From: Nemertoderma westbladi
Taxonomy: Eukaryota; Animalia; Xenacoelomorpha
Reading direction: 5' to 3'
Length of the DNA: 64,000 bases
Assembly (NCBI GenBank): GCA_032718475.1
Contig: JAUCBJ010006426.1
Span: forward strand, 13,498-77,497
This document shows, one piece after another, positions 6,896-62,657 of this stretch (position 1 is the first letter of the stretch; every line of letters begins with the position of its first letter). The notes below the pieces were generated by a model that was not told where the DNA came from, did no database searches, and saw only the letters and a list, made by a program, of their open reading frames with translations. Position numbers and translations under genes: made by a program.

Positions 6896-7099
6896 CATGT
6901 CTGTTGTAGGTACCATCAACTCAAGACAGGGGGTGGGGGGGGGGGGGGGTCATGGTTCATGGGTCACGTTTCATTACATACATAGTTCATTCATTACACA
7001 CAGTATACTATATGCAGCTGCAGTGTTATAGATAAAATAATAAACTACAGGGTGACAGGTACTGTACAGTATGTAACAGGCAGATTTTATGTTTTATAC

Positions 7100-10526: not shown

Positions 10527-11680
10527 CTTTCAGTCTTTGAAGTAAGCAGGAAAGTTGTTAAGTTAATAGCAATACAATATATATAATAAACAAAGATTTT
10601 TTAGATTTTATTTTAGATAGATTTTAATTAGGCCTATTTCTTTTGTGTCTGTTATATTGTGTTTGTTTATAGTATCACAGTCCCTAGCCCCCCCCCGCCC
10701 CACGGCCACACCCACAAACAAACTAACAATCTGACTGCCCCCCCCCCCCCCGGACTGTAATACAAATTGCACTTAATATTTTGGAGCAAAAATAATAATT
10801 CAATAACTAAAAAACACTAGTACACAGTTTTATAGGTACAGTAAAGTCCGGGGGGGGGGGGGGGGGGGGGCGTCAGATAGATAGTAAAATAATATAATAT
10901 TATTATTATAATACAAAATAATATTGAAAGTGACGTTTTGATTGAAATTGAGCCTATTATGAATAATGATTTCAATATGGCGCCCCCTTTAAAGTGCCAG
11001 GGTGGTGTTCACTGTACAGTATGTATGACTGCCTGCATAGTCGTGTGTGAGCAAGCCAATCCAGTGGCTAGGGGAATGTCAGAGTAGGCCCCTTTCCATT
11101 ATTGGTTTGCTTGAGGCTGGCTGTAATGGGATCAATGTATCAATGTAACCAACAAAGAGGTTAATAAAGGCACTACACACTAAGGCAGTGAGCCTATCCT
11201 CCTACCACACATCACATCCTATCTAGAGGCATTCATTCTCTGCAGTGTTTGTTGGCCTAAGGCTTAAGGTAGATCCGGCCCTGTGAGCGTGAGACAGAGA
11301 CAGGTAGTGGTGTCCAGTAGTAGGCTTTGCCTCATCATTCAATGTATACAGTCCAAGCCTGGTGGGCCCTGATCCAGTGCTTGCCTCTATGTTAAGACGG
11401 CACTGTGTAGGCTGCTGCAGAGATAAATAAATAGGTGTGGGGGGGGGGGGGGGGGGGGTGTGGGTGTGGGGGTGTAACTCGTAGGAAGGGATGCCATAAA
11501 TAGTGGATTTCTTGACAGCCTCGGAGCTTAAGCGTAAGCGTTTGCATTCACATAAAAAAGATAAACAATATATTAATTTTTTTAACACCATTTTTTAAAT
11601 AAAAAGGTTGTAATTTTTCGAGGCCCCTAGATATCGGGAGGCCCTGGACTGCAGTCCATTTAGCCCTGCTGTTAATCCGG

Positions 11681-12744: not shown

Positions 12745-13122
12745 CCGGCACTGGTCAGTCAGCTGGTACCCTATATAATTAACTCACCAATCAACTCTTA
12801 AAACCCTTCCATGCATGAATTAATTTTTTTTTCAAATTTTTTCAGAAAAAACTATTTTCTGGTATATTTTTACCTGCAAATTCAGAAAAAAATATCAAAA
12901 ATTAAAAAAAATGGTCAGTTTTTGAGCTATGGTGCGTTTTGTCTGCGTGCCACATATGGCACGATATGCATTAGAGGTAACAAAAAGTATAAACCCTTTA
13001 GTGCATGATGGGCCATATATGGCACAACACATAACACGACTCCCACGAAGTAGAAGAAAAATGTGCTTTTAATTTTATTATAATTTCCTTTTTTTATAAT
13101 TACATAGATAATTACACACAAA

Positions 13123-15369
13123 TCAGTTTGTGTGAAATTTCCTGAAACAATTTTGATCTTTATTAAAACATAAGGCAGTTTGGCATTTTTCGCAACTAAC
13201 GAATGTCCTTTTATGACAGTTTGAAAGTTTACACCTCAGTCGCTTTGGTTCATAAGAAGGCCAATGGCCAGTGCAGTCAAGCCTTATATCATCTCTTGGA
13301 AGTGGGGGTTCCCTTTTCCTTGGTTCTGTGGACAATGTACTTGGGCGACCACCTCTTGCACTTGAAATTCGAGATCCAATTCGGCACATCGTCACTCCTA
13401 GACTCTCCCGAAACTCTGTGATGGTCATGTTAGAACTTGGACCATGAACCTTCCTGAACAAGATCCAACTATTGACAATAGTTACATCTATTAGATGGTA
13501 AAACATGCGAAAATACCATTTCTTTGTCTTCATCCTTATTCGGTTTCGACCTAGGAAACTATTATGCAGGTCTACTCCTCCCATAAACCGATTGTACTCA
13601 CGGATTGCAGCAGGCTGTGATACTTCTCTATATTCCCCAGCACTTCTGAAATATCTTCTACATGTTCCAATAGGCATTTCCCCAACATAACTCGATGCCA
13701 CATGTACTGCTTTATTATCATTCCATGCCACTACACTAATATCTACACCTTTCTTTAATTTATCCTGCATCTCACTAACAGTTATATCATCCCCCTCTTT
13801 ACCTGAACCATCTGCACCAACAATTCCTCTTCCACCCCCTCTCATTCTGACGTTTCCTCTACTACCTGCACTTCCGGCTCCAATAATTCCTCTTCCACCC
13901 CCTCTCACTCTGACGTTTCCTCTACCACCTACACCTCCAATTCGAGCAATTCCTCTTCCACCCCCTCTCACTCGAATGTTTCCTCTACCACCTACAACTC
14001 CAATTCCAACAATTCCTCTTCTACCCCCTCTAACTCTGGCATTTCCTCTGACACCTGCACTTGCCGCTCCAACAATTCCTCTACCACCTCTCACTCCAAA
14101 AAAATCGCTATCACATCCACTGTCTCTCTCATCCTGAACTGGCGCAATGTTGGTTACCACTTCGTCTGAATAACCTCTATCTTCCTTTCCGATATCTGCC
14201 ACTGACTTGATTGGAAGTCCAGGAAATCGATTTCTCTGAATTGTCCCAAGCGAGTATATTCCACAGATAGCCAAATATACAAAAAGGCCCAGTGTACTAA
14301 AATAGTTATCGAAATACAATTTATGGTTTTTATTTCTTGGTATACATCTACTAAGACGCATGACTATATTCGCACTAGCCCCAAGATCAGGTTCGCATGT
14401 ATATCTCTTTGGTTGTTCACCTGAATAGATCTCAAATACATATGTAAAGCCACTGATACCACATAGACATAGAAACTTAAATCCCCACTTATGAGGCTTC
14501 TTCGGGTTATACTGTCTCATGAAATGTTTAAACTTGGTTGCACAAATTTGTTCGTCCACGGACAAATACTCCTCACATGGAATTGTTCCAAACATCTTGT
14601 TTAGATGGTCAATAATAGGTCGCAGCCAAAATAAGCGATCATGATTAGGTTCACCCCTGGGAATCATATTAGTCACATCATTAAAATGTAAGAAGCGGCG
14701 AATTTTCTCGAATATATTAACTGGCATTGTGTTAATTATTGTAGCATTGCCCATATAATAACTCCAGTAATGTCTGACATTGTTCAGCGGCATTATTGAC
14801 ATTAAGATGAGTATTCCTAAATATTTTGTGACAAGATTAGGAGTCAAAGAAAATTGTTGATTAACATCAACCTGCCTGGTGTATATATTAGATTCCCAGC
14901 ACATCTTTTCAACAATTTCTTTATTAAAGAAATACGAAAAAAATTGGTATGGTGATTCTAAACAGGTTACCGATTCTGGGAGCACTTCTGGGGAAAATGG
15001 ATTGTCATGCCAGACAATGTGGCCTTCTTCCCATTTTACCTGCGTTGCTATGATGCCCAAGTTTGGTTTGAATTGCCCTTGATCGTTATCTGTCGTTGCT
15101 ATCTGAACGTCCACTTGATCGTTGATAACATTTTGTTCTTGGCTTTGTTGAACTATTTCTGATGTTGAGGTGCTTCTGATCATGGGATTTTCATGATGTT
15201 GATTTCCATAAAATCTTCTCACTGGAATTGAAATTGGAGTTTCAATCTCTGATTCCGATCCGGAATCTGATATATCTAATGAACTGCAACTATAATCCGA
15301 ATCTGCTGATATGACAATGTTTAATTGTTCAATGTCTTCAAGGTCATCTTCTAAAAAAGAATCATCCAT
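13123..15369 (-). CDS. piggyBac transposase, intact 748 aa, with an RGG-rich repeat insertion
   Basis: LSVDEQI, YNPKKPHKWGFK, YFDNYFS, YNRFMGGVDL, C-terminal Cys-rich domain CKLSNC...CEKC..ALC...CFRKFH. Confidence 0.92.
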   Translation of the reverse strand: MDDSFLEDDLEDIEQLNIVISADSDYSCSSLDISDSGSESEIETPISIPVRRFYGNQHHENPMIRSTSTSEIVQQSQEQNVINDQVDVQIATTDNDQGQFKPNLGIIATQVKWEEGHIVWHDNPFSPEVLPESVTCLESPYQFFSYFFNKEIVEKMCWESNIYTRQVDVNQQFSLTPNLVTKYLGILILMSIMPLNNVRHYWSYYMGNATIINTMPVNIFEKIRRFLHFNDVTNMIPRGEPNHDRLFWLRPIIDHLNKMFGTIPCEEYLSVDEQICATKFKHFMRQYNPKKPHKWGFKFLCLCGISGFTYVFEIYSGEQPKRYTCEPDLGASANIVMRLSRCIPRNKNHKLYFDNYFSTLGLFVYLAICGIYSLGTIQRNRFPGLPIKSVADIGKEDRGYSDEVVTNIAPVQDERDSGCDSDFFGVRGGRGIVGAASAGVRGNARVRGGRRGIVGIGVVGGRGNIRVRGGGRGIARIGGVGGRGNVRVRGGGRGIIGAGSAGSRGNVRMRGGGRGIVGADGSGKEGDDITVSEMQDKLKKGVDISVVAWNDNKAVHVASSYVGEMPIGTCRRYFRSAGEYREVSQPAAIREYNRFMGGVDLHNSFLGRNRIRMKTKKWYFRMFYHLIDVTIVNSWILFRKVHGPSSNMTITEFRESLGVTMCRIGSRISSARGGRPSTLSTEPRKREPPLPRDDIRLDCTGHWPSYEPKRLRCKLSNCHKRTFVSCEKCQTALCFNKDQNCFRKFHTN
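13810..14100 (-). repeat. 63-bp (21-aa) in-frame tandem repeat encoding RGN.R.RGG.RGI units
   Basis: tttcctct anchor recurs at 63-bp spacing (~13852, 13915, 13978, 14041). Confidence 0.9.
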
Positions 15370-16972
15370 TTTACATTTTGCTTTTACATATCATGTCACA
15401 CATACAAATTACACATCAATTCCATATTACAGTTAAAGTAAGCCAAATCTCTAAACAACATGTATAATTATTGAAGACATTCAACTAAATCTATAACATG
15501 TATGTACATACAATCGAATAATTACCAGTTCACATAAATTCCACACAAAATGTGAAGTTATACAATAAATTGTTCAAACTAATAAAATTAAAATAACACT
15601 ATATTATTAATGTAATTTTAGAAGATATTGACAAACTGTTGTCTAGTGCAGTAGATTCATAAAAGATTTAAAACAGAAAAGAAAATGGATAAATGAAAGA
15701 CTGATTGAAATATACAATAGTCTGACTATAAGTAGCTGGATTCAGGCAGACAGGTAGAGTAAACGATGTTGGTGTTCCATTTGTGGCACGCTATGCAGTG
15801 AACACGTAAACATTTCTTTAAGTCTCTATTGCACACTGTGCCATATATGGAACACATGTATTTTTCACTGTAATGGACAAATTCTAAACTTTTACAATAA
15901 TTTTGCATTTTTGGGTTATAAAGCGATAATTTGTTTACTAGAAAATAGTTTTTTTAACCACCACTGGCATATACATCGAAAATTACAACTCATTGAAAAC
16001 TGTCAATTTTTGAAATTATCAATTTTAGACCTGGCCCGTTCTAAAGCATTATAAAAGTAATTCACACGCCATCTTGTGTACAGATTGTGTTTCAACTGCA
16101 AGAATATAGAATTCAAGACATGTCCACCAAAGATTAGGATATTATGAGCAGGTTTCCATTCTGTAGAATTAAAAATAATAGGTGTTCCATATATGGCACA
16201 GCATGCATGGAAGGGTTAATACTAGGTAGGTATTAGGTAGGCCTATCTGCCTAGGCCTATACCAACATAGACAACAATAATAGGCCTAGTCTAGCCTAGC
16301 TAGACGGTCATTGAGGGGTTTTGGTTTCGGGGACTGCGCAGGCCTATATGGGGAGAAGGACTGGTGGACGAATTCTAAACTCCACTCCGACCAAGAAACT
16401 GCTGCCTGCATTACAATTATTTTTCTGTCATGTTTGTGCCATTTCATCCTAAACCAATATTGAATAAGTATTAATAAGTTAAACCCACGTTCGTTGTGAC
16501 CCTGTCCAATAGTGATAATTGTATTAATATAATTCAATTATTTTATTAAATTATTTTCCAATAATAGGCCTAGTTGAAATAAATGTATACATATCCAGCA
16601 CCAGTATTACCGGTATGGTGAAATGAAAAAAATACATTTTAATATTGAAAAAGAAGGAGCAAAGCTATCAAAATTTTTATGGCAAAATATTTTTCTCACT
16701 TTGCATGCACTTCATGACTTTTGATCTTTTGCAAAGATTACTGAGCACTTTCAGTGTTTTTTACACAATTCTGCATAGGCCTATGTTTATTTCAATTCCA
16801 CTCACAGCACTATTGACTATTTCAAATCCGTGCACAATGTGTTGCAGTTTTTGCATTCCATTTTCAGCCTGGTATAGGCATAGACTATACTACAGTACTA
16901 CATACCAGTAGTATACTAATTAAGATATAAGTAAGTTAAACCCTAGTAAATTTACATTCCCTATGCTATAGG

Positions 16973-17326
16973 CAGTTACGGACAGTTGCCTATATAGGCA
17001 TCAATAGACATTTCCTATTTAGGCAACATTTACAATGTAGTGTTGCCTTTATAGGTAATAGTGATGTATCTTTACTGCCTAATTAGGCAACATGTGACGG
17101 TCAGTGTTATAGATTATATTTTTTAAAATAAAGAATTAATTTGGCGCTGAATATTATTGTTACTTTAATAAATACAACAAGGTATAGCCCTGTAATTGAT
17201 ACTGGAACCAATTTTATTTACCTGTTTGTCTGGACGCAATGGTGTCTTTTTGTGAGGTGATGTCACTCATGTTGCCTAAATAGGGAACCTCAAAAAATTG
17301 GTTTGTGATGCCTATTTAGGCAACTA
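16973..17326 (+). repeat. Left TIR (~354 bp)
   Basis: Reverse complement of 28198-28551 apart from a few substitutions and small indels. Confidence 0.93.
16989..17320. promoter_or_regulatory. Six CArG boxes CC(A/T)6GG in the left TIR
   Basis: CCTATATAGG 16989, CCTATTTAGG 17014, CCTTTATAGG 17046, CCTAATTAGG 17078, CCTAAATAGG 17275, CCTATTTAGG 17311, mostly within a GTTG-CArG-CAAC-like palindrome; the motifs are seen directly, their function is inferred. Confidence 0.75.
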
Positions 17327-17838
17327 CATACAGACATATACATACTGATATACTTTGATTATAAGAAAACGTTTTGGAGGATTGAGCTCAGTCAATCATT
17401 TTATCTTTTTTTACTCTGTTACCGATTTCAGGATTTAATTTCTTTTAATTTACTTCCAGTACCTATACTCTTAAGACTGTCATGTCATAGTGGGGATTCA
17501 TATTGCGTAGTAGGCCTACAGTTGTAGCAGAGCAGCGCAGCAGTAGGTATGCCATGTCAAGATACTAGTAGTTATTATTTAGGCTGCTTTTAAGGCTCAG
17601 ATTGGCAGATTGTTTCTATTTCGAATTTTTAATAATTGAGTCTGAGCGTTTCTGTATTTAGTATTGTGAAATTTTATACCTTCACTAATTCAGTCAATAT
17701 AGGCTAGGCGACTTCATTTCATTGCAAGTGATCAAAGACATATATGTAGTTGCTATTCAGTCTTAAATCAGTTAGTATATACTGGATATTATATAGTGAT
17801 TAGAGTACAGCCTTTGATACTGCCGACAGCCAGACTGC

Positions 17839-20800
17839 TTGGCGCCAAACAAAGGAGTAGAAACCGGATTGTGGGCCGCCACTATCCCTCGAAGAGGAAT
17901 GCCGTGTTGCAGGTGCGGCATCAACAGCACTTGCGTGCGGGGCTGCGCCTGTGTAAAGGCCAAGATAGACTGCCTGAACTGCGTTCCCGGTAAGCGGAGA
18001 CGGTGCCGAAACGGCGGGACCGATTCACCGATCAGCCAATCCCAACCCACCCCGACCAGCGATGGACTACGAGACTTGGTTTCACCCATTTCGTTCTCCC
18101 AGCCAACAGCTACAGAGTCGGGGGGGAGGGACGAGTCCTTCGACGAGACTTTGGTGGTGGAATTGTCGGACAGCGATGGTTCTTTCCATTCGCTCAGCGA
18201 CACATTGGTGTCACGTAGTTCTGTGTCCGAGGTCAGTCTATCAGCCTCAACGACTCCAGAAGTCGGACTGTCGGGTCCAGATGTGCTCATGGGTCAGGGG
18301 AACCCCGTTTCGCCAACCATTGATGCCGCCTCCCTGGACTGCGCCTCCGGTGTAGCCCCTACGGTGTCCAGTGCTGCCCCCCTTACCCCAACAGTGTCCG
18401 GTGTTGCCCCCCTCACCCATATGGTGTCCGGTGTTGCCCCACTCTCCACAACGGTGTCCGGTGTTGCCTCCCTAGATCTCACGCATACGGTGTCCGGGGT
18501 CGCCCCTACGGTGGCTGGTGTCGCCGCCCTCACCCCTACGGTGTCCGGTGTTGCCCCACTCACCACAACGGTGTCCGGGGTTGCCCCCCTCGATCTCACC
18601 CCTATGGTGTCCGGGGTCGCCCCTACGGTGTCCGGTGTCGCCCCTATGGTGTCCGGTGTTGCTCCCCTCGCCCCTACGGTGTCCGGTGTTGCCACCCTCG
18701 CCCCAAATGTGTCTGGTGTTGCCCCCCTCGCCCAAACGGTGTCTGGTGCTGCCCCCCGGGCCCCCATGGTGTCTGGTGGCTCCCCCCTTGCCCCTATGGT
18801 GTCCGGGGTCTCCCCCCTCGCCCCAATGGTGTCCGGTGTTGCCCCCCTCGCCCCTATGGTGTCTGGTGCGCCACTGGTAGCCACAGCAACGCGACCACGC
18901 GGAACTACGCAGCCGCTGAGTGCCACAACGCCAATAGCTGCCCCAATCCCGCCAACGAACGCCAACTCCAACAGAATAGTTTCATGGGGCAATGTAAGGC
19001 TACCTTTACTTCAGTTGGAGACCTCGATCAATGGCGTCTACGACGTCATTGTTCACTGGCGACCCAATCTATTTTTGGTTCCACAGGGTATGGTCGGGCG
19101 CGATTTTGTGGCAGGAATGTCCAATCTTCTGTCACTAGTGACGACGGGGAACCCTCTGCAGTCGTTTGCGCTGAAGGCGTTGATGGCAGCCCCGGCTTTG
19201 TTGCTCCAGAAACCAAGCCGCGCATCAACAACGGCGACACACCGGCGGGTTCTAGAATGCCGGCTGGAAAGTTGGAAACGCGGCGAATTCGGTGAACTCC
19301 TCGTGGAAGCCAGAGCAATTCAGGCGCACCTCCCCAAGCAACGTTTCCGAGCCGATTCTCAGAACGTTGCCATGCAGAAAGCGTTTGTGCGTCACATGCT
19401 GGTGGGAAACGTGTCTGCGGCGACAAGGAGTCTCAGCGACCTGAACCAGGGGAAACCGCTGAAGTTGGACGATACTTTCGTGGACAAAGACGGAACGACG
19501 AAGATTGTCCGCGATGTTCTGCGGGAGAAACACCCGGCCGCGAAACCCGCCGATGAATCCATTCTCCTCACAGAGTTCGTTGGAGCCCCAGAGTACCACA
19601 GCGTGATATTTGAGCGCCTGAATGGACAGCTCATCTTGTCCAGTCTTCTAAGGATGCGTGGAAACGCTTCGGGACCTTCGGGGTTGGACGTCCAGGGATG
19701 GAAACATCTCCTGACGAGGTTCCGGAATCAATCAACGGAGCTCTGTGACCGAATCGCCGATTTGGGGAAACTCATATCGCAGACTGTTCTTCCTCCAGGA
19801 ATTCTTACACCGTTTCTGTCCGCCCGACTGCTAGCGCTTGATAAGAACCCCGGAGTCCGTCCCATCGGGATAGGCGAGGTTATCCGCCTGGTGGTCGTCA
19901 AGGCGGCGATGACCTGTATCCGCGGGGATCTACAGGAGGTGGGCGGCCAGAAGGCCGGCATCGAGTCCGCCATCCACTCGCTGAACGACGTGTTCGCCAC
20001 GGACAATGGCGACGCCGTCCTCCAGATCGACGCCACAAATGCGTTCAACGCGCTGAACCGCGAGGCGGCGCTGCAAAACATCCGGCTGGTCTGCCCCGCG
20101 CTTCACACCATCGTAGTGAATTGCTACGACCAGCCGTCGTGTTTGTTCGTGGGGGGCGAGACGATGTTCTCGGAGGAGGGCTCGACGCAGGGCGACCCGG
20201 TGGCGATGCCGATGTTTGGCGTCGGTCTCGTCCCGTTACTCGCCGAGCTTATGCGCGCCTGTACTGTCGTTCAGAAGTGGTACGCGGACGACGGGAATGC
20301 CGTGGGGAAACTCAAGGAACTCCAGAAGTTCTGGGACGTGGTGTCAGTGAGGGGGCCTCTCTACGGGTACTACCCGACTAAGTGCTGCCTCACCGTCAAG
20401 CCGGAGAAGTTGGAGGAGGCGAAGGAGATTTTCGCGGACACCGGCGTTGCCATCGACACGGTGGGGAACAAACTCCTCGGCGGAGTAATCGGGACCGAGG
20501 AGTTCCAGCGCGAGTACACCGAGCGGAAGGTGGAGGAGTTTGCCGCCGACGTGGATCGCCTCGCCACCATCGCCGCAGTCGACCCGCACTGCGCGTACGC
20601 CGGCCTCGCCTTCGGTCTCTCCTGCCGGTGGCGGTTCTTGGCGCGCGTCGTCCCGGGGGCCACGGATTCTTTTGGGAAGTTGGAGGAGGCCGTGGAACAG
20701 TGCCTCTGCCGGATCATTGACCGGCCGGCGGTATCGGCGACGGAACGCGAGTTGCTGTCGCTACCGCTTCGGGATGGTGGGCTGGGGATCCCGGTTCCCG

Positions 20801-21791
20801 AGGATCTACGACCCCAATACGAGAAATACTGCGACCCGTTCATCTCCATGGAGGGCGAGTCAATGGTGGCAGTTAGGGAAGAGCAGACGCACGTAGCGAA
20901 GTTAGTTGCAGCCTCCTCCTCTGTTGTAGCGAAAGCTAAAAAGGAGGAGGTTTATGACAAATTAAGTAGTGAAATGCACAATTTGTGCGGACTAACTACT
21001 GAGAAAGGTGCGTCTGCCTGGCTAAATACCAAACCCTTAACGTTACACGACACTCACCTGTCCAAGGAAGAGTTCCGTGATGCAGTTTGTCTCCGGTACG
21101 GTTGGTCGCCAAGAAATCTTCCCTCTCGTTGTGTCTGTGGGTCGCGATTTTCTCCTTCCCACGTTCTGTCGTGTCCCACTGGGGGGTTCCCCTCAATCAG
21201 ACATAACGAGATCCGCGATTTCATCGCCGACTCCCTGACTGAGGTGGCCCACAACGTGGCTGTCGAGCCGATGCTCCAGCCGCTGACGGGGGAGTCCTTC
21301 ACTCTCCGGTCCACCTCGACGGACCAGCAGGCGAGACTCGACGTGTCGGTAAGCGGATTCTGGGGCAACTGCTTCCAGAAGATGTTTATCGCGTGTCGGT
21401 GTTCAACCCGCTGGCGGACACCAACGCAGCGATGTCGCTGGACGCCGCCCACCTCCATCACGAGGCGAGGAAGATCCGGAGATACGAGGAGCGGATCCGT
21501 GAGGTTGAGCACTCAACCTTCACCCCCCTCATATTTTCCGCTTTCGGGGGCATGGCGCCGGCTGCGAAGCAGTTTGTCAAGTGGCTGGCGTTGAGGCTGT
21601 CGGAGAAACGACAGGTTCCCTACCCGGAGTCAGTAGTGTGGGTGCGGCGATGCATCAATTTCGCCTTACTCCGGTCGTCCCTGATGTGCCTCCGTGGGTT
21701 TCGGTCGGCCGCTAGAAGACCGGTGCGGGCAGCGGTGGCGGACGCGTCCATTGTGTGGGCGAACGCGGACTCGGACCCCGGGATGGCTTAG
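17839..21791 (+). pseudogene. CRE-like single ORF: N-terminal Cys cluster, VSGVAP repeats, RT, zinc knuckle, RLE; one frameshift near 21390
   Basis: CCRC...C...CAC...CLNC, PGVRPIGIGE, DATNAFN, EGSTQGDP, WYADD, CVCG...HVLSC, RHNEIRD, RLDV..GFW; continues as VFNP...KIRRYE...FTPLIFSAFGG in ORF 21393-21791. Confidence 0.9.
18340..18870 (+). repeat. In-frame 21-36-bp tandem repeat (T/MVSGVAPL) inside the CRE ORF
   Basis: Many copies of ggtgtccggtgttgcccc. Confidence 0.9.
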
Positions 21792-22110
21792 ATGTTAGAG
21801 GTCTGGCGGGTTTGTTGGGTACTGGCAGTGGCAGACTGGTGATGGGTACTGAACCAATTTGTATGGTTTGTATTGTTGCTAGGTAACAGTTTGAATCAGC
21901 TGGTGGTGGGTTATATTTGTACTTGTTTTGGTGCGTTTTTATATTCGAATTATTGTTTGTTAATATTATAATATATGGAGGCTTTTGAGTAAAAAAAAAA
22001 AAAAAATATACTGTATTAATACATTTATCTCACCATCCAACTGTATATTACACACTATAGTTAGTCAGTCACATACTGTATTTAACCTAAATATATATAA
22101 CCTAAACTAA

Positions 22111-23800
22111 ATGGAATTCGAAATTGGGAGCGATACCGATGATGATTGTAATGATTCTGGCCTGATGTTGATGAATAGATTGTGGCAAAATACACTACCC
22201 GAACTTAATATACCGCCGCACTACTACCCAGTTGATCCACAACCCAAAACACCTCCATTATCCAACTGTGATATCCCATCTACGATTCTATTGGATTTCG
22301 ATGACGAAAGTAAAGATAAATCCTGGTTTCCTGTGAGGAATGATGGCAAGGGCATGTGTAGGGGTGGTTATGGTGTTGGACATGGTGGTTGTGACGGAGG
22401 AGGGGACAATGACATTGGGGTTATCACAGGGGGCATTGAGGGTAGGCCTATTGTAGTTGGTGCAGAAGGTATTTGGGGAGGTGATATTGGGGACACAGTA
22501 GTTGGAACTAACGTCATTGGGGGTGTTATTGGCAATGGGGAAATAGTAGTTGGAACTGCTGAGGACATTGGGGGTGATATTGAGAATATAGTAGTTGGAA
22601 CTGAGGACATTGGGGGTGATATTGAGAATATAGTAGTTGGAACTGAGGACATTGTTGGTGATATTGAGAATATAGTAGTTGGTACTGAGGACATTGTTGG
22701 TGATATTGAGAATATAGTAGTTGGTACTGAGGGTATTGGGGGTGACGTTGGGGACATTGTAGTTAGCGCTGAGGGCTTTGGGGGTGAGATTGGAAGTGGG
22801 GCTGAGAACATCGGACATAAAAAGAGAAAACTGAAATGCAAGACACAGGATCAACTGACTTTCAGTGCTGATAAAAAGCGCAATAGAGATTCAACTCTTT
22901 ATAAACGAAAGTCAACCTTAAAATCTAAGTCTGATGATTTGGATATTACGACTCAAGTAAAAACAGACTTAATTTTTATGACCTCAAAGATTTCAAAGAC
23001 AACCAAAAAGGAAGTTTTCCATTTAGAATTTTATTCTTCGCATGATAAACACGCTACCAATACAAGTATTACAAGTCTTCTTTCTGGCCTAAATCTTCCC
23101 CTATCTACTATTGGCAAACAAGAGTTCTCAACTAAGGGAGAGGCACGACAGGCTGTGGGCCGCATACTTATGGGAGATGAGTCTGCAGGCTATGGTGGCG
23201 GTGGAACTGCATGTGATTCGCATGTGGATGCACCACAGCCACTAGTCACACCAACAAAGGCGCCATATAGTGCAATGCCACGTGTGTTTCCTATTCCATC
23301 CCAAGTATGTAGGATTTGTGGGGTACTTAGTGGAGGAGAACGGGATATGGGAGGCTTGTGGTTTGGATGCCGTGGTATTGAAGGTAAATGTTCTGCATGG
23401 GCACACGCCACTTGTCTTGGTGTTGGAAAAAATACAACAGCTATTACGGATAAATTGGAATGGAACTGTGCTGTTCATTTATCAGGGATCAGCACAACAC
23501 AAAGCCGTGTTACACAGGTAATATCTAATAATCACGAACAAATGTGTCGGATCTGTGGGCGTCAGTATGGTGTCATTGTGGACATCGCTGGCCTTTGGCT
23601 AGGTTGTCAGGGGGGGTGATAGCGTCTTTAAACAGTGGGTCCATGCCCACTGCTTAGGTTTTCCAACTTTACGGAAAGGGAGTGAAACAGAAAAATCATT
23701 AGTGTGGGAATGCAAAGAACTCTCGAAATTACCTAATGTCCCTGTTTTAACCAAGAGAGGTAGAGGTCATCCTGCAAAAAGACAAATAAATAATTTGTAA
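22111..23800 (+). CDS. Transposon accessory protein: acidic/Gly repeats, MADS-box-like domain, two PHD fingers, AT-hook-like motif (frameshift in the G run near 23610)
   Basis: KKRNRDSTLYKRKSTLKSKSDDLDITTQVKTDLIF...HLEFYSS aligns by eye with SRF/MEF2 RRYTTFSKRKTGIMKKAYELSTLTGTQVLLLV / KLFQYAS; PHD1 CRIC..WFGC..C..WAHATC..WNC..H; PHD2 CRIC..WLGC|QWVHAHCLG..WEC; KRGRGHP before the stop at 23800. Confidence 0.75.
22480..22790 (+). repeat. 39-bp (13-aa) in-frame repeat GGDIENIVVGTED
   Basis: Repeats of gatattgagaatatagtagttggaactgaggacatt. Confidence 0.9.
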
Positions 23801-24480
23801 TCAACTAATTGAGTTTTATAGTTTAATATATAGGCCTACTTGTTGATTTTAAAACATTATTTACCTTTGTAACCTCACTATGCAATGATTTAAATGCAAT
23901 AGTTAAGAATTTAATCAGTGAATCATACTTTTAATATTTTGTTTATCTTAAACTCAATTTAAGTATCAAACTCAATTCGAGACAGGGGAGCTGGGAGGGA
24001 CTTGACACAAATCACACCTCGATGAATTAAATATATAATCTCGGCAAATTAGCAATGTTAATTATCAATTAAGGGAAAGGAGCAGGTTACAGTGGTATGC
24101 TATTCTACAATAAACGAAAGTCAATAGCAAAGGCTACAGTGGCATATTATTCTAACCAAAACAATAAATTAAATACATATATTCAGGTTACAGTTTCATT
24201 TTTGAGAGTAACCATCTATGAGTTGCTTTGAATTTCCCCAGGGGAAGGATGAATTTTATTTTAATTGTGTCAAGAGTAACCCACCCCCCCCCCCCCCCCA
24301 CAACCCCATCTGCTCAATTCCAACTGATCATAACAACATTCAATAGGTGATTAGGCTAGGTGATGTATAAGATTTAATCAGTTTCATAATCACTAGAATT
24401 ACTTGTATCCGTTTCATTACAGTCCAAGAGAGGCGGGAGTGAAGAGACAGTTTCAGTATAATCCTCTAAATATTTATTTA

Positions 24481-27035
24481 TTAGCACCTGTATATATCAG
24501 GGTACTCAAAAATATTATTATACAGTTCAATGAACGAATTCTTCAGATGGCATCTTAGAAGTCTTTGTAAAATATGATCACTAATGTCCTTATTTGAGCA
24601 ATTTTTAGAAAACCACTCAATAATTGTCTTTAATTGGTCTATGGTTTGATGATCAGACGATTCTTTAAGACATTCTTGCGTATATGTAATTGGAACTGGC
24701 TCGCATTTCGGATTTTCTGATCCTGAAAATACAGCTTTGCAACAAGTTATTAAATTAGTGTAGCCATATTCTAAAAACATTCCAAAATGAGAACTCATTT
24801 CTCCACTTAGTCCAAGTGGATGACGTTTGTCGGGTATAAATTGCGAACTCATTACGAAATGAGAATTGTGTAATAATTTCCTAAATTCCAGTACCATTTT
24901 CGAAAGGTCTACATTTTTTTTTCTCAATATATCAGCTTTGTATGGATCCACTGTATATGATGCAATAAAGACACTGTCTCTCACTTCTGCAAGCGAGTTG
25001 ACAGTTCTGTAGTTTGTAATCCATCGTTTCCAAGATGGTAGACCCCCACTCGTATTCCTCTTAATTTTTTTGTGCACTTCTTCTAAAACATAATCTAGCC
25101 CCTGGCCTTTAAATGACAGACCCCGGGAGAAACCTTCATTTTCATACAGTCTTGAAATATACCCAGGTAGCTGCCACTTTTGTATGAAATAGTGTGTTAT
25201 AATTTTTCTGTAAATATGATTTGTGTGTGCAAAAAAGGTTGGTGCGAACTTGAATAAGAAAGTGTCAATTGCTTTAGAGTTGTTGCGTCGAATTCCAGAT
25301 TTAAATAAGTAGGCTGATAGTTAGGACCAATTGTCCAATCAAATAACATTTTTTGGGATGGATTCTGAATCTTGTTCGCCCATAGATAAAAATCATTTAT
25401 TGTAATATCTGTTGTCATTTTCTTTGCATATATTTCACTGATGGCCAACATCATTATCTCTTTCAAATTAGCAATTAATATTATATCGAATACTTCAGTC
25501 ATCTTGTGGTGATCATTTGCTTTTAAAAAGGCTGATTGAGCCTTGGTCGTTTTGTAATTAGCAATTTCGGTAGCAAACATCTGTAGGAATGGTGTCCAAA
25601 GAATCTTAGTTAAAGTTTTTATCATGTTCAAATGAATATGTCCAAGTCCAGGCTTTAATATAATTTGTGATGCCAGCTCCATATTTTTTTTTAGAATATC
25701 AATAGCCAGAGAATATGGCAAACCATCCATGACAACAACTAACCACTTTCGGTTTTCTGATAAAAAATGTAGGCATAATTTCTGTAGAGAATTTTCCACT
25801 GCCTCTGATGACCCTGGATCACCTGGAAATGGATCATGTATTCTAAACTGTATGTCACCATCTTTCTTATCGAAATTAATTGATGTGCCATCGATAAAAG
25901 GATATGTATCCATTACACGAACACCAGTAGACAATTTGTCAGAGGCAAGATAATCATCATGCAGTTCGTTTACAGAACAACCATTGGAAATAAATTCAGC
26001 CTTGACCTCTTTGAAAACCGAACTTAAGAATCTAAGTCTTGTTGCTGCCGCAAACTCATCCATCTTGTCAACTTCGCATGACAACAAACTATCGAAACTC
26101 CCACGGTCTATGAACTGAAGCGCAGTGAACTGTGTAGGTTGGATCGTATGGAACAGCATACTAGCAACACTAGTCGTTTTAGATATAGGAACTCCTTGGA
26201 ATATTACATGATAAGTTTTTAGATAATGTTGGTTGTTATCAATGACTACATGCAAATCACCAGGAGTTTCATAAGGAACTTCAAGTGCTTTCTTCATGAC
26301 CTGACCTTTTAGAAATGTGGTGCTTCCACTGGGAGAACCTAAACCTTGTAACATCGTTCCAATTTTACTACTGGAAAGCATATATGACACATACTTCTGC
26401 ATAAAAGTAACAGGACCAATAAATGAATTCATCAATAAAAAACATAGTTGTTCAACAGTTTTAATTATTTTGAATTTTATACTTTTTGTAGCTTGAATAT
26501 CAATTGATTCCACATCTGCCATGAAACAGCAAAACTCCAAAAGAGTGGGATCTACATGAGAAAAGAAATTATCGCCAATAATTTCTTCATGAAAACAACC
26601 TTTAAGGTTTGCTGCAGTTTTAATAATAGAGGTTTTTAGAGATTTAAGGTAGTCTTGAATGTTATCCTTCGAATGTGAATCATTCAGATGATATACAACT
26701 TCAACATTATCCTCTTCCATATTGCCACTTCCAATATAATCGTGCACAGTTGTTTCCTCAGTATATGTCCGTTTGGTTACTTGACTTACATGTTGAAGTA
26801 GGTTGTTTTCATTGAATTCAATTTTTGCAGAATGGTAACAAGAACGGCAAACATACCTGGTACTGGAAGGTCCCATACTTGATGTTGTTTTCTTTCTGAT
26901 GAATGCAACAACTGCGGCACTTACTTTTTTGCGTGCAGGATCAGTGCTCAGCAAGTCTGTAGTTTTATTACATGATCTTACCATGCATTTTGCCTTCCAA
27001 TGCCAACTGGATCCTTGAATAGGAGGTACTTCCAT
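24481..27035 (-). CDS. Academ-like DDE transposase (~850 aa; one frameshift near 25320)
   Basis: N-terminal CMVRSC...CRSC; candidate catalytic motifs VVIDNNQ and VVVMDGLPY, then PGLGHIHLN and DHHK; after the frameshift AYLFKSGIRRNN...KGQGLDYVLEEVHKKIKR; motif order matches the Academ/DUF6589-type DN..D..GxxH..DxxxE arrangement. Confidence 0.7.
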
Positions 27036-27180
27036 TTGAGATCAAATTATTTGATGTATTATAAGGTCTGAAGGTTAATGCATCAACTCTTACAATTATA
27101 ATTTAATTTAATCATTTATACGTAACATATACGTGTACACCACATCTGATCTGTGGTACGTACGTCATACGTATACACTA

Positions 27181-27653
27181 CAGTACATTCCTCATTCCGG
27201 GTGGTCCTCAAACCATTTTATAATGGCTGTCAATGGGAGGATTGAAAGGATTGAATGGCTAACTTCAAACCAAATTTTTTATAAAAATGATGGTTTGAAA
27301 CTTTCAATCCGCTCCAGGCGCCTGGTTTGAAAGGATTGAACATCCACATACATTCATTCATTCATACTTGAACATACATTTTTTTTAAAGGCTGTTACTT
27401 CTAAGTTAATTTGATTGATGAAGTCGGTTGGCTTTGTTTGTACAATTTCCGAATGTGGTTACAGACAACACATGCCCCAGGCTCCTTCCCACATACAGCG
27501 CCGATAATGGGATTGGATACAGGCAGCTCAGCATTAGGATTGAATATTCCAGACATACAAACCTGCAATTTTTTGTGGTTTGAAGTTGGATTGAACAGGA
27601 TTGAGGAATGACCCCCAGAATGAAGAAAACCACCCAGAATGAGGAATGTACTG
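27181..27653. mobile_element. Tc1/mariner-type MITE nested in the TIR element
   Basis: TA|CAGTACATTCCTCATTCCGGGTGGT ... ACCACCCAGAATGAGGAATGTACTG|TA. Confidence 0.8.
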
Positions 27654-28197
27654 TATACAGGATACCAGGTATATAAAATGATCCTGAGCTATTTATTATA
27701 GGCTTAGGCTGCTATGTGAATCTATGGATCCGGCCAGATAATAACTATTGATTCAATTTACCATTATTTTAATTAAATGAAATAATTAATATATTATCAG
27801 ACTAGAGCAAGACAAAAAAATTTACATTTATTCAATAAGGCAGTACAGTATGGTACAATACTGTGTAGTTCAGTCTAGTTATGCCATAATCAATCCCAAT
27901 CATTATTCATTATATTTCATTTTACCGGTAGTGGACTTCATAAATTTTTAATATATGTACACATACAGGCTGACTGACAGGTACCGCGTCATTAAGTCCT
28001 TTGGCCATTAGTTCCTGTGGCATTAGGTCCTGTGGTGTAATATCATGGTGTTGTTAAGGGAAAGGAACAGGTTACAGTGACATCATTCTAACCAAACAAT
28101 AAGTCAACCAAATGACGCTTTTTACCTTTACCGAAGATACTAGGCTGAAAGGATATATTTCAAGAGTGGATTAAATATACTGTAGTGCGAGTTAGGC

Positions 28198-28551
28198 TAG
28201 TTGCCTAAATAGGCATCACAAACCAATTTTTTGAGGTTCCCTATTTAGGCAACATGAGTGACATCTCCTCACAAAAAGACACCATTGCGTCCAGACAAAC
28301 AGGTAAATAAAATTGGTTCCAGTATCAATTACAGGTCTATATACCTTGTTGTATTTATTAAAGTAACAATATTCAGCGCCAAATTAATATCCTTATTTAA
28401 AAAAATATAATCTATAACTCTGACCGTCACATGTTGCTTAATTAGGCAGTAAAGATACATCACTATTACCTATAAAGGCAACACTACATTGTAAATGTTG
28501 CTTAAATAGGAAATGTCTATTGATGCCTATATAGGCAACTGTCCGTAACTG
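28198..28551 (-). repeat. Right TIR (~354 bp) with four perfect and two C>T-mutated CArG boxes
   Basis: Perfect boxes at 28204, 28240, 28469, 28526; mutated CTTAATTAGG at 28437 and CTTAAATAGG at 28501. Confidence 0.93.
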
Positions 28552-29424
28552 ATAGGTAATATGAATCCCATAACCTTCATCAATATATTATGGTATATAT
28601 CAGAAAAATTGGTATTAAAGCAAACATTGCCAGTAGCATTTCATTGCAATAAGTTATTTAAGTAGGCCTACTGGTACCAGTAGGCCTGGACTACCAGTAT
28701 TAAACCTTTGATATCTGAGGCATATCAGGGCATTGCATGTACTTACTAATATAAGTTAATGCAATGTCTAGTGATGGTCCAGATAATGTTCTTCTGAATT
28801 TTGTAAAAATAATTGAAAGTCAATCCTGATTATAAAAAAGTGTGAGTCAGTCAATCAACAGGTTGGTTTAGTAAAAAGTTGGCAAGTTAATGCTATAATG
28901 TTATATATATACCTAAAACTCTAAAAGAGATAAAACACTGATAGATAATTGATAATATAAAAAGGAAAGTACATGCACTGCTTAGTGTCACTGTCTTTAA
29001 ATGGTACCGGTACTAAAATTCTCATGCCCCCATCTCACATCTAGTAGCCAGTATTATTTGTCTTACAAATATGATTATTATATTTATTACCGGTATTTAC
29101 TGGGATATGGCTTCTTCAATCGCTATATATCTTTACAGTTTATAAAAGTAGAGTCCAGATATGATATAGTTTATTTTTTTTTTAGTTTTAGAGTTAAAGA
29201 AAGGGTATTTCCGCGTTTCAGCATCGGTGGCATCATTTTTTTTTGCTACAAAACAGGGCTCTCTGGGAAAAATCTCTCTCTCAAAATTCAGTTACTACAC
29301 GGAAAGGACTCAGACACTTTTGCCTAAATTTCCAGTCTCTACAGGAAAATACTGGGAACAATTTTTTAAATTTTTTATTTTTAGTTAAAGAAATTAGTAA
29401 TATTCAACTGGCAATGATGTACAT

Positions 29425-33132: not shown

Positions 33133-34908
33133 TTAGTCTTTCTTGCGCGGACGGCGTTTACGCAGTTTTTTAAAGCTAGCCAGAGTCCTTTTCTCTTTGG
33201 GGCGAGCCACTTTACAAGGAGGGCTATAACTCCTGGGTGAAGGGTGCAATATGATTGCATCAGAGGTTGTAGGATTATGGTCGGTGTATCCGCCAGTCGA
33301 AGTACCGGGTTGATTGACATCAACGTCAGGTGAGAGGGGTCTAACGGCTTTGAGAGCTCGTTTCAAGACAGCCGCTCTTACGGGTCCTTTACGAGTGGTC
33401 TGAACGAGGGCCGTGGGTGGACCATAGGCAGTTAGAAACTTCCGGGGTTTAATGGTCCTTTCCAACTCGCGTTCGCGGGCTCGGTATTCGTAAGGCCTTC
33501 GATGTACTTCCTGCAACTCGGGGTGTGAGTTAACAAACAAGTCTCCATAGTCCGGATCCTGACGGATATAATTGATTAAGTTATAGGAATGAAGGTCGCT
33601 AGGATTAACACTCCTGAGAAATTTGCGTACGAATTTAGTTGAAATACATTCTCCGACGCGCTTCAGTAGCTCGTAACTTGATATGCGTGATTTCTGTTCA
33701 ACAGAAGCGAATAGATAAGGATGGAACGCATAAACTCCTTCGTAAGCGCGTCCGGGATAATAGCGATGGCGCGAATCACAATGTAAATCAGCGTTCGCTT
33801 CCCAAGCTCTGATGTAACGCAGTGTGATCATTTCATCTACGCTTTCCAAATCGTGATTAAAAGGGCAGTCGAAACTAGCATGTCCCTTTAGTTGACAATG
33901 GTGACATTGAGTCATAAATTGAGGGCAAACCGCAAAGATATGTAAGTTATTGAGTCTGCAATATGCGCAATAAGTTTCCATAGTCGGTTGTTCTTGGAAA
34001 TAGGAACAGCGGACGTTGGTGTCCATGGGCGTATCGTGGTCTCTCGATGCGCATAACCGACAACGTTGCCTAGAAACATAGTTGGCATGTCGATAATCGT
34101 ACGCAGTGAGACACTGTGGACCTTGATACCATTCTATGATGTAATCGTTATCGCTGTTCCGGGGCGCGATAGGCTGAATCTCTTCAGATTCTAGACATAT
34201 TGGTTCGTCTTCCAAGTGCATAGCTGAAGTGGGCGCGTCTGTCTCTTCAGGTGAACCTATTGTCTGAATTTCCACGACAGAATAACCTGTGGGGATTCGA
34301 GGTCTTTGTATAACAGAGGAGTGCAAGTTCGATATACAAATCTCTTTGAAAATGGCGAATCCAGCGCTATCCAACTTCTCTGCAGCTGAGTTTCTTAGGC
34401 TGAGTTTGGTCAAAGCGCGGTCTTTAAATTGGCTATCCACGTTGCGGAACGGGGTTAAAAATCTCCGGAAACATTCGAAACGGATGAATTTATTATGTTC
34501 ATCTAGCTTAGCGAGTTTGGTCCCAAGTATTAATGGATGGGCGCGTATAGTACGACTGCACACATCGGCTAGCCAACCGGCAAGTGCGGTGTTTTCAAAG
34601 ATCGTGTATATAGCTAAGGAGGGACGGAGTGGAACACTCATGAAGCTATACACGGCGCCAGGTGCGGTCAATGGTCCATCAAAGTATAATCGAGAATAAT
34701 GGTCTCCGTATACCTGTTGATAGTTAATGGGATTTCCGACCTTGAAATTCCATCCGTATTCCTGAAAGGCAAGATGTCCGATGGAAGTTCGTTGCACCTT
34801 GGTAATGTTGCTAGACGTATTAGCATACATGGTGCGGAAGAAACCTCGACCTTCTGCCCAGGGAGCAATCAGCTGAGTATCAACGAAAGGGTATGGAATG
34901 TCCTCCAT
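33133..34908 (-). CDS. Extra BEL ORF of unknown function, 591 aa, with clustered Cys/His zinc knuckles and a basic C-terminus
   Basis: Open 591 codons; CRLC..DH..C, CAYC..LH..VC, CHHC.LKGHASFDC; KKLRKRRPRKK tail; no evident TM segment. Confidence 0.7.
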   Translation of the reverse strand: MEDIPYPFVDTQLIAPWAEGRGFFRTMYANTSSNITKVQRTSIGHLAFQEYGWNFKVGNPINYQQVYGDHYSRLYFDGPLTAPGAVYSFMSVPLRPSLAIYTIFENTALAGWLADVCSRTIRAHPLILGTKLAKLDEHNKFIRFECFRRFLTPFRNVDSQFKDRALTKLSLRNSAAEKLDSAGFAIFKEICISNLHSSVIQRPRIPTGYSVVEIQTIGSPEETDAPTSAMHLEDEPICLESEEIQPIAPRNSDNDYIIEWYQGPQCLTAYDYRHANYVSRQRCRLCASRDHDTPMDTNVRCSYFQEQPTMETYCAYCRLNNLHIFAVCPQFMTQCHHCQLKGHASFDCPFNHDLESVDEMITLRYIRAWEANADLHCDSRHRYYPGRAYEGVYAFHPYLFASVEQKSRISSYELLKRVGECISTKFVRKFLRSVNPSDLHSYNLINYIRQDPDYGDLFVNSHPELQEVHRRPYEYRARERELERTIKPRKFLTAYGPPTALVQTTRKGPVRAAVLKRALKAVRPLSPDVDVNQPGTSTGGYTDHNPTTSDAIILHPSPRSYSPPCKVARPKEKRTLASFKKLRKRRPRKKD

Positions 34909-35278
34909 ATTCCTGTAGGATGACTAATATGTTTTCCGCCATTGATGGTAGTGGTAGAGAGCAGGGGAAGGCCTATGTCGTATTCAGAAATATTCAGAAA
35001 TACGATCTCAGTAGGAGGATTCAATCATTAGGAGGATTCAATCATTCGAAGACTATCTCTAAATGAATTTATCCCTAGCGAGGAGGTAAATACCAGTTCA
35101 AGGATATGTTTGTCTCAGTTGTTCTACATAAGATTTATTTCTCCAATCATTGAGGGAGGTGAACAACCAGATTTATGACACATAATGGTACCAGTTGTTC
35201 ACAAACTATCCTCGTGTCCTTTCAGTCCTTGTTTGTATCACGGTTGCGGACTTAAGGAAATTATTGGTGGTTGATTTT

Positions 35279-42358: not shown

Positions 42359-42359
42359 G

Positions 42360-57855: not shown

Positions 57856-57870
57856 ACGTTTCGTAATACG

Positions 57871-61501: not shown

Positions 61502-62657
61502 GTATAGGCAGGCATAGACTATTCTACATACCAGTAGTATACTAATTAAGATATAAGTAAGTTAAACCCTAGTAAATTTACATTCCCTATGCTATAGGTA
61601 ATATGAATCCCATAACCTTCATCAATATATTATGGTATATATCAGAAAAATTGGTATTAAAGCAAACATTGCCAGTAGCATTTCATTGCAATAAGTTATT
61701 TAAGTAGGCCTACTGGTACCAGTAGGCCTGGAATACCAGTATTAAACCTTTGATATCTGAGGCATATCAGGGAATTGCATGTACTTACTAATATAAGTTA
61801 ATGCAATGTCTAGTGATGGTCCAGATAATGTTCTTCTGAATTTTGTAAAAATAATTGAAAGTCAATCCTGATTATAAAAAAGTGTGAGTCAGTCAATCAA
61901 CAGGTTGGTTTAGTAAAAAGTTGGCAAGTTAATGCTAGAATGTTATATATATACCTAAAACTCTAAAAGAGATAAAACACTGATAGCATTGATAATATAA
62001 AAAGGAAAGTACATATATATACAGTAATTATATAAAATACTACTATAAAAAAAGGAAAGTAAATTAAACTGATCAAGTAAAAACTTATCAATGTGGACTC
62101 AGACTGCTTAGTGTCACTGTCTTTAAATGGTACCGGTACTAAAATTATCATGCCCCATCTCACATCTAGTAGCCAGTATTATTTGTCTTACAAATATGAT
62201 TATTATATTTATTACCGGTATTTACTGGGATATGGCTTCTTCAATCGCTATATAACTTTACAGTTTATAAAAGTTGAGTCCAGATATGATATAGTTTATT
62301 TTTTTTTAGTTTTAGAGTAAAAAAAAGGGTATTTCCGCGTTTAGCATCGGTGGCATCATTTTTTTTTGCTACAAAACAGGGCTCTGTGGGAAAAGACTTA
62401 GACATTTTTATCAAAATTCAGTTACTACACAGAAAGGACTCAGACACTTTTGCCTAAATTTCCAGTCTCTACAGGAAAATACAGGGAACAATTTTTTAAA
62501 TTTTTTATTTTTTGTTAAAGAAATTAGTAATATTCAACTGGCAATGATGTACATTAGGGTGAGGCTGGTGCCCCAACTTCTTCAGAATGGGCCTAGTATC
62601 AATCAATCCTCAATGGTCAATTTAGTGGGGGTAGAAACCCTCAAAACTAAAATAGAG
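61502..62657. repeat. Duplicate of 16872-16972 plus 28552-29527, containing the empty insertion site
   Basis: cattccctatgctATAGGtaatatgaatccc is contiguous at ~61581-61611. Confidence 0.92.

What the first reader, a model, noticed from the sequence alone, without database searches (positions are those of the whole stretch)
16973..28551. Candidate new two-component DNA transposon: Academ-like transposase plus MADS-box/PHD protein, with CArG-box arrays in its own TIRs
Seen in sequence: ~354-bp TIRs, a 5-bp TSD confirmed by an empty site, and two convergent genes (22111-23800 + and 24481-27035 -). One gene has a MADS-like segment, and each TIR carries six CC(A/T)6GG boxes (two mutated in the right TIR). 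Established: CC(A/T)6GG (CArG) is the binding site of SRF/Mcm1-type MADS dimers, and Harbinger elements use a separate Myb/SANT protein to bind their ends. Inference: this element uses its MADS protein to recognise and bend its TIRs and to recruit the transposase, with the PHD fingers and AT-hook reading chromatin. I do not know of a described transposon with this architecture. Without the nested CRE and MITE the core element is ~6.9 kb.
Basis: partly seen in the sequence, partly recalled or inferred. Interest (0 to 1): 0.92.

Follow-up and report, generated by a model that had tools for sequence, protein, structure and literature searches.

The report
Transposon carrying its own SRF-like end-binder
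This is a real cut-and-paste jumping gene whose two ends each carry six copies of the DNA word read by the switch protein SRF (two are mutated at one end), and whose second gene encodes a likely SRF-type DNA-binding domain that is predicted, but not shown, to grip those words and help the element move.

Summary
The element has 354-bp TIRs (96% alike, CAG...CTG ends), a 5-bp duplication confirmed by an empty paralogous site, and six CArG boxes in the left TIR (shuffles give 0.06). The right TIR has four intact and two mutated boxes. The core is 6.9 kb without the nested CRE and MITE. Both convergent genes are frameshifted here, but another sample lacks both frameshifts and has the second PHD's zinc ligands. 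The transposase is a divergent DDE enzyme of a large unnamed animal family with weak DUF6589 (Academ-like) links; it fails Academ's TSD and accessory-enzyme tests. The MADS call is the top hit of three methods but stays below Pfam's cut-off, and folding was uninformative. The AT-hook is imperfect. The scan already found this MADS-PHD architecture in other genomes (e1-8593426, e1-8792906, e1-9349136). New here are the matching CArG arrays in the TIRs, a frameshift-free allele, and a candidate enzyme for this genome's N5-CAG/CTG-N5 scars. Binding is untested. A piggyBac transposase binds a CArG-like palindrome without any MADS protein, so the boxes alone do not prove the model. Verdict: new variant, interest 0.7.

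The parts
16968..16972 (.). left target-site duplication (ATAGG)
   Evidence: single copy at the empty paralogous site
16973..17326 (+). left TIR, 354 bp, begins CAG; six perfect CArG boxes at 16989, 17014, 17046, 17078, 17275, 17311 (spacings 25, 32, 32, 197, 36)
   Evidence: (RVT_1, E 0.014, weak)
22111..23800 (+). accessory gene: acidic Gly-rich repeats, MADS-like segment, two PHD fingers, basic tail; frameshift near 23610 in the window and X1, absent in X2/X3
22846..23007 (+). MADS/SRF-TF-like segment
   Evidence: Pfam SRF-TF E 2.8e-5, 23.9 bits, cut-off 26, only family at E<=10; only PDB hit a MEF2 chimera, E 0.65; Atlas MADS clusters 0.82-0.83
23308..23472 (+). PHD finger 1
   Evidence: 24.3 bits, cut-off 24; similar to the PHD of related locus L003, E 5e-8
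23545..23722 (+). PHD finger 2; broken in the window, with its Cys and last His present in X2/X3
24030..24250 (.). fragment of an unrelated high-copy repeat between the two genes (limits approximate)
   Evidence: read depth thousands of times that of the genes
24481..27035 (-). DDE transposase, about 850 aa: ZAD-like N-terminus, RNase H-like core, candidate triad D266/D437/E651; frameshift near 25321 in the window and X1, absent in X2/X3
27181..27653 (.). nested TA-flanked MITE with CAGT ends (Tc1/mariner-type by its TA duplication; label recalled)
28198..28551 (-). right TIR; perfect boxes at 28204, 28240, 28469, 28526, one-mismatch boxes at 28437 and 28501
   Evidence: TIR contigs of X1, X2 and X3 show the intact base at both mutated boxes, but left and right TIRs collapse in those contigs
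28552..28556 (.). right target-site duplication (ATAGG)
61594..61598 (.). empty paralogous target site in a second copy of the flanking repeat
   Evidence: flanks 95-98.6% alike on the right and 97 columns on the left

Best explanation
This is a dead allele of a two-gene cut-and-paste DNA transposon with 354-bp TIRs and a 5-bp duplication, whose divergent, Academ-like DDE transposase is likely helped by a second protein whose likely MADS domain would bind the six CArG boxes in each of its own ends. Shown: the ends, the duplication, the boxes, both genes, a frameshift-free allele in another sample, and conserved D266/D437/E651. Predicted: the RNase H-like core and the ZAD-like N-terminus. Inferred: MADS dimers load on the boxes (boxes 2-4 lie 32 bp apart, about three helical turns, so bends would add up), bring or shape the ends for the transposase, which acts on the outer 16 bp and cuts at CAG/CTG, as the Myb protein does for Harbinger. 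Also inferred: the PHD pair reads histone tails and steers the complex on chromatin. My step-wise odds are: real element 0.99; MADS-derived domain 0.85; it binds these boxes 0.7; the binding serves transposition itself 0.5.
For: Six boxes vs 0.058 expected, all fitting one longer dyad. The same element encodes a segment whose best match is MADS by Pfam, PDB phmmer (basic-helix R, T, KRK and K kept) and the Atlas (9 of the 10 best family hits share the family). Sample S2 (X2, X3) lacks both frameshifts and has PHD2's Cys and His, with no stop among 25 coding SNPs, so the two genes existed together as open frames over the part examined (22830-27250). The triad is kept in 44/44, 46/46 and 43/44 relatives and in the window. 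A PHD gene sits opposite the transposase in 3 of 6 related loci. Precedent: the Harbinger3_DR Myb protein binds a subterminal 9-bp motif and the transposase (PMC9710019, passages).
Against: The MADS score is under the cut-off, and a 54-aa PDB search found nothing. Atlas scores under 0.9 are leads only. The human PGBD3 transposase binds a palindrome that contains a CArG match (PMC3459987, passages), and the piggyBac next door (12986-16223) has three CArG boxes and no SRF-TF hit in its transposase. Giant-virus contigs carry similar box arrays with no SRF-TF hit in 3 of 3 records searched, though no control rang. No SRF-TF hit was found in the decayed partner regions of L002, L003 and L005. No second element's TIR could be read, so co-variation of boxes with the MADS gene is untested.
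Confidence: 0.5

Rival explanations
1. The MADS-PHD protein binds the TIR boxes as a transcription factor. Both genes read inward from a TIR, so the arrays act as mirrored promoters through which the element switches on or dampens its own two genes, with no role in end synapsis.
For: The genes are convergent. In the core element the inner boxes lie about 0.55 kb upstream of ORF2 and about 0.7 kb upstream of the transposase start (coordinates). MADS proteins are transcription factors (established). ORF2 has a long acidic stretch. An unchecked note reports CArG-like arrays before genes beside a MADS gene in a fungal giant element (e1-7585223).
Against: The boxes are confined to the TIRs and four lie within 115 bp of the tip. 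None is perfect in the unique sequence nearer the start codons.
Confidence: 0.2
2. The transposase itself binds the palindromic boxes, as piggyBac enzymes do. The likeness to CArG is coincidence, and the MADS-PHD protein acts elsewhere, for example in target choice or nuclear import.
For: PGBD3 binds a CArG-matching palindrome. The window's piggyBac has such boxes. The transposase has a ZAD-like domain and about 160 helical residues before the core that could hold a DNA-binding unit.
Against: It needs a chance meeting of six perfect CArG boxes with a MADS-like gene in one 6.9-kb element. The other CAG-ended, 5-bp-flanked MITE in the window (52275-52804) has a different motif and no CArG, so the boxes are not a general feature of such ends.
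Confidence: 0.2
3. ORF2 is a captured or decaying passenger, and the boxes are read by host SRF (for expression) or by nothing.
For: The MADS segment is divergent and has no close relative among 5.8 billion proteins. Of 11 ORF2 differences between alleles 9 change the residue.
Against: ORF2 has no intron, is frameshift-free in S2 over the part examined, and the changes at conserved PHD sites are losses in the window's allele. A related PHD gene recurs opposite related transposases, and earlier unchecked notes report the MADS-PHD partner in other genomes.
Confidence: 0.1

Closest known systems
Academ superfamily (AcademH, AcademX); DUF6589 / PF20231
   Same: TIR element with a large DDE transposase. 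20 of 48 relatives match DUF6589 at E<=0.01 and 7 pass its cut-off; Atlas rank 3 is a DUF6589 cluster at 0.89. That DUF6589 is the Academ-type transposase is recalled and taken from earlier notes, not from a call.
   Different: The TSD is 5 bp, against 9-10 bp (AcademH) and 3-4 bp (AcademX) (PMC10045372, passage). There is no helicase or nuclease gene; the partner is MADS-like plus PHD. The window's enzyme has no Pfam hit itself.
PIF/Harbinger (Harbinger3_DR)
   Same: Two genes, one a transcription-factor-type DNA-binding protein, and repeated subterminal motifs (PMC9710019, passages). This is the best 'works like' model.
   Different: The partner is MADS-like rather than Myb/SANT, and the transposase is about 850 aa rather than 400-500 aa, with no Harbinger-type Pfam hit.
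RAG-like transposons (ProtoRAG, protostome RAGL) and Transib
   Same: 5-bp TSD, convergent gene pair (PMC7204232, passages) and a PHD in the partner (RAG2 PHD recalled). 7 of 48 relatives carry a RAG1_imp_bd-like N-terminus.
   Different: The ends are CAG rather than the invariant CAC. ORF2 has no kelch match. No RAG1 core hit appears by sequence or fold.
piggyBac PGBD3/MER85
   Same: CArG-matching palindromes near the ends (PMC3459987, passages).
   Different: There the transposase itself binds them; single gene, TTAA target (recalled).
SRF/Mcm1/MEF2 MADS-box factors (PF00319)
   Same: Basic helix pattern aligned to a MEF2 chimera; cognate-looking CC(A/T)6GG sites in cis.
   Different: Below the family cut-off, internal rather than N-terminal, fused to two PHDs, and carried by a transposon.

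Membership tests
Academ | transposase homologous to Academ/DUF6589 | tested here: inconclusive
   no hit for the window protein; 20 of 48 relatives at E<=0.01, 7 over the cut-off; no reference Academ sequence was available
Academ | DDD/E RNase H-like catalytic core | tested here: met
   D266, D437 and E651 near-invariant; model residues 256-466 align to integrase cores, Z 7.4, rmsd 2.5, 80 residues, a middling Z
Academ | TSD of 3-4 bp (AcademX) or 9-10 bp (AcademH) | tested here: not met
   5 bp, one insertion, confirmed by an empty site; lengths from PMC10045372
Academ | helicase or nuclease accessory enzyme | tested here: not met
   only two genes in the core; ORF2 matches SRF-TF and PHD only
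Academ | nesting within Repbase Academ families in a tree | not testable with these tools
   Repbase and Kojima 2020 not held; in my own tree the window enzyme is a long branch of unsure place
PIF/Harbinger | second gene with a DNA-binding domain | tested here: met
   ORF2; binding itself untested
PIF/Harbinger | Myb/SANT/MADF domain and a 400-500 aa Harbinger transposase | tested here: not met
   no such Pfam hit; transposase about 850 aa
RAGL/Transib | 5-bp TSD and convergent gene pair with PHD | tested here: met
RAGL/Transib | 5'-CAC termini | tested here: not met
   termini are CAG; CAC invariant per PMC7204232
RAGL/Transib | RAG1-type core fold | tested here: inconclusive
   not listed in fold searches of an N-terminal 565-aa model; absence there excludes nothing
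MADS-box (SRF-TF) | profile match over the curated cut-off | tested here: inconclusive
   23.9 bits vs 26, E 2.8e-5, positions 4-39 of 48
MADS-box (SRF-TF) | MADS fold | tested here: inconclusive
   single-sequence model pLDDT 46
MADS-box (SRF-TF) | binds CArG boxes | not testable with these tools
   needs EMSA

The most novel reading that the evidence does not exclude
This is a distinct lineage, possibly a new superfamily, of animal DNA transposons that took over the SRF/MADS-CArG code as its end-recognition module. An element-encoded MADS-PHD protein binds phased CArG arrays in the TIRs and is required for jumping. The enzyme makes 5-bp duplications and cuts 3 nt inside its CAG/CTG ends, leaving the N5-CAG/CTG-N5 scars that litter this genome. 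Each insertion would also drop twelve ready-made SRF sites into the host genome.
Probability: 0.35. Interest if true: 0.85.

Novelty: new variant of a known kind. Interest (0 to 1): 0.7.

Why it matters
It would be a second, independent case, after Harbinger's Myb protein, of a transposon delegating end recognition to a transcription-factor domain, here the MADS box with its textbook site. Protein and candidate site lie on one 6.9-kb unit, and a frameshift-free natural allele exists, so the idea is directly testable by EMSA and excision assay. It also opens the mechanism of the Academ-like enzymes, for which my searches found no biochemical study, offers a candidate writer for this genome's excision-type scars, and gives a route by which transposons could seed SRF sites in animal genomes.

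Tried and rejected
No whole genome is held, so copies could not be collected. Contig depth over the TIR is about 1.2-2 times that over the genes, which fits a low-copy element but is not a copy count. No RNA holder was listed. Run X5 barely covers the stretch. Word-based homologue searches found nothing for either protein, and the Atlas gave no usable hit for residues 230-502. The single-sequence fold of the MADS segment failed (pLDDT 46). The homodimer job returned 'no answer' (0.28 vs mark 0.32). Foldseek gave no match at E<=0.001; ISCth4 and P-element transposases led the weak rows. The family profile against PDB sequences gave only small zinc-finger hits. There was no relative in viral contigs and one 1-kb piece in genome contigs. 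The six metagenome loci are short, share one assembly prefix and hold no TIR pair (one search scanned 4 of them). An 8-residue likeness to the MADS helix in L003 (E 4.6) got no Pfam support and was rejected. The CArG-pair scan of viral contigs gave 89 loci, none with a transposase hit. The tree leaves the window enzyme unplaced. Assembly error as the cause of the frameshifts was rejected, because short-read contigs of X1 show no gap at either site. The AT-hook was not accepted. Literature: searches (7 papers; 5; 1; 0; 0; 0; 2) showed, by listing and abstract starts, no transposon with a MADS partner or CArG TIRs. Passage searches of PMC10799480 and PMC12730594 found no MADS or SRF. Kojima 2020, Yuan and Wessler 2011, Repbase and Dfam could not be read, so an entry there is not excluded. 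No supplements were opened.
Full report
1. Observation. The element spans 16973-28551. Its TIRs are 354 bp, 96.4% identical over 357 columns, and begin CAG. ATAGG flanks both ends. A second copy of the flanking repeat at 61510-62665 is 95-98.6% alike on the right and holds one ATAGG and no element, which fixes the duplication at 5 bp. The left TIR has six perfect CC(A/T)6GG boxes, against a mean of 0.058 and a maximum of 2 in 5000 dinucleotide shuffles. The right TIR has four perfect and two one-mismatch boxes. The boxes share a longer dyad, and boxes 2-4 are 32 bp apart, about three helical turns. Removing the CRE-like retroelement (17785-22013, 8-bp duplication) and the TA-flanked MITE (27181-27653) leaves 6875 bp; a scrap of a high-copy repeat also sits between the genes.

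2. State of the genes. Both genes are frameshifted in the window. Public contigs settle what that means. Run X1 shows no gap at either frameshift site and has a further one-base loss at 25684, so the breaks are real. Runs X2 and X3 (one sample) lack both frameshifts. None of the 25 coding SNPs makes a stop, and two restore zinc ligands of PHD2. X2 alone has an extra base at 23717, and both have a 2-bp loss at the transposase's last codons. I examined only 22830-28800, not the 5' part of ORF2 or the left end, and could not tell whether the S2 copy is at the same locus. The window is thus a dead allele of a two-gene unit that was recently open.

3. Transposase. It has no Pfam hit and no close homologue, but an exhaustive search finds 273 representatives at E<=0.001, the best at about 23-36% identity. 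Two of ten looked up are named, both from bivalves. Of 48 scanned, 20 match DUF6589 at E<=0.01 (7 over the cut-off) and 7 match RAG1_imp_bd. Among the 46 relatives of 650 aa or more, D266 (44/44), D437 (46/46), E651 (43/44), D647, H466 and H510 are near-invariant and kept in the window. The model of the first 565 residues (pLDDT 78.7) has an RNase H-like core (Z 7.4 to an integrase, rmsd 2.5, 80 residues; a middling score) and a ZAD-like zinc domain at 11-89. In a fast tree of 51 rows the window enzyme is a long, unplaced branch. It is a DDE transposase of an unnamed family with distant DUF6589 ties; equating DUF6589 with Academ is recalled.

4. Partner protein. Residues about 245-300 give SRF-TF as the only Pfam family at E<=10 (E 2.8e-5, 23.9 bits, cut-off 26). 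The only PDB sequence hit is a MEF2 chimera (E 0.65), with the basic-helix residues aligned; a shorter query found none. The Atlas returns MADS clusters at 0.82-0.83. Each result is weak; together they point one way. The fold could not be confirmed. PHD1 passes its cut-off; both PHDs have the tryptophan before the zinc-binding His that marks many methyl-lysine readers (recalled). The tail reads RGRGHP, not a clean AT-hook. Of six related metagenome loci (one assembly prefix, so not independent), L002, L003 and L004 carry a similar PHD on the opposite strand. In L003 it lies between two transposase pieces, like the interleaving reported in note e1-8593425. No SRF-TF hit was found in the decayed partner regions of L002, L003 and L005.

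5. Mechanism. The best reading (0.5) is Harbinger-like division of labour: MADS dimers on the TIR boxes, the transposase on the tips, and the PHDs on chromatin. In Harbinger3_DR the Myb protein binds a subterminal 9-bp motif and the transposase (PMC9710019, passages). Only the anatomy is shown here. Against it, human PGBD3 binds a palindrome containing a CArG match (PMC3459987, passages), the neighbouring piggyBac has three such boxes, and giant-virus contigs have tandem arrays with no SRF-TF hit in 3 of 3 records, with no control ringing. So boxes alone prove little; the weight lies in their meeting with a MADS-like gene. Since both genes read inward from the TIRs, transcriptional self-control is a real rival (0.2), as is binding by the transposase (0.2). 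A passenger gene is least likely (0.1).

6. Scars. Following note e1-10611558, I counted exact 5-bp repeats around CAG/CTG: 34 of 2033 sites, against 12 of 4329 for six control trimers, with no excess at 3, 4 or 6 bp. One, at 16888, matches an 8-bp gap in the paralogue. Sleeping Beauty leaves TSD-CAG/CTG-TSD by cutting inside its ends (PMC6943129, passages). This element has the right ends and the right TSD, so its family is a candidate writer. That is not shown: a second CAG-ended MITE with a 5-bp flanking repeat (52275-52804) has other subterminal motifs and no CArG, and by my count it differs at 4 of the first 11 bases, failing Repbase's rule for shared assignment (PMC4455052, passage).

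7. Known systems and novelty. It is not filed as Academ: the TSD is 5 bp, not 3-4 or 9-10 (PMC10045372, passage), and there is no helicase or nuclease. It is not RAGL, since the ends are CAG, not CAC (PMC7204232, passages), though the 5-bp TSD, convergence and PHD run parallel. It is not Harbinger, though it likely works like one. Seven library searches showed no described transposon with a MADS partner; the key Academ paper and Repbase were out of reach. The scan has already reported an Academ-like MADS-PHD element in other genomes (unchecked notes, not independent proof). None of those notes came up as holding 'MADS', 'CArG' and 'transposon' together, and nothing matched this TIR or transposase by sequence. 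Verdict: real, a new variant of TIR DDE transposons, mechanism plausible and testable but unproven; interest 0.7.

Noticed in passing
window-wide; e.g. 16888, 17326, 17424, 27063, clusters at 52208-54265 and 59316-59718: N5-CAG/CTG-N5 motifs at 34 of 2033 sites vs 12 of 4329 controls; one matches an 8-bp gap in a paralogue. They look like excision scars of CAG-ended elements with 5-bp duplications.
   Followed up: partly
window 52275-52804: A 530-bp MITE with CAG ends and a TAGTA flanking repeat, with repeated subterminal motifs unlike CArG; it could also be a TA-type element with a chance 3-base match.
   Followed up: partly
window 12986-16223: A piggyBac-type element (DDE_Tnp_1_7, E 7e-65) with an open 755-codon frame holding a Gly/Arg-rich repeat insert and three CCATATATGG boxes, resembling the MER85 palindrome.
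   Followed up: partly
L034:5001-5131 and 6407-6558; L047; L079:5001-5170; L013; L077: AT-rich giant-virus-like contigs carry tandem intergenic arrays of a CArG-containing unit, in L034 and L047 in inverted orientation around a kinase-like gene; no SRF-TF hit in 3 records searched, 2 not held.
   Followed up: partly
window 33136-34923 (-): An open frame of 596 codons with no Pfam hit at E<=0.001.
   Followed up: no
window 37659-45774 and 57864-61219: BEL/Pao-type retrotransposon pieces (Peptidase_A17, DUF5641) and an older related copy, 68-81% alike.
   Followed up: no
window 5793-7028 (+) and 7852-10529 (-): A second piggyBac-type frame (E 6e-50) and fragments that look by eye like a hAT transposase; the two fragments scanned had no Pfam hit.
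   Followed up: no
L096:67-951: A 41%-identical relative of the transposase family on a 1-kb contig of a bacterial symbiont bin, probably host DNA in the bin.
   Followed up: no
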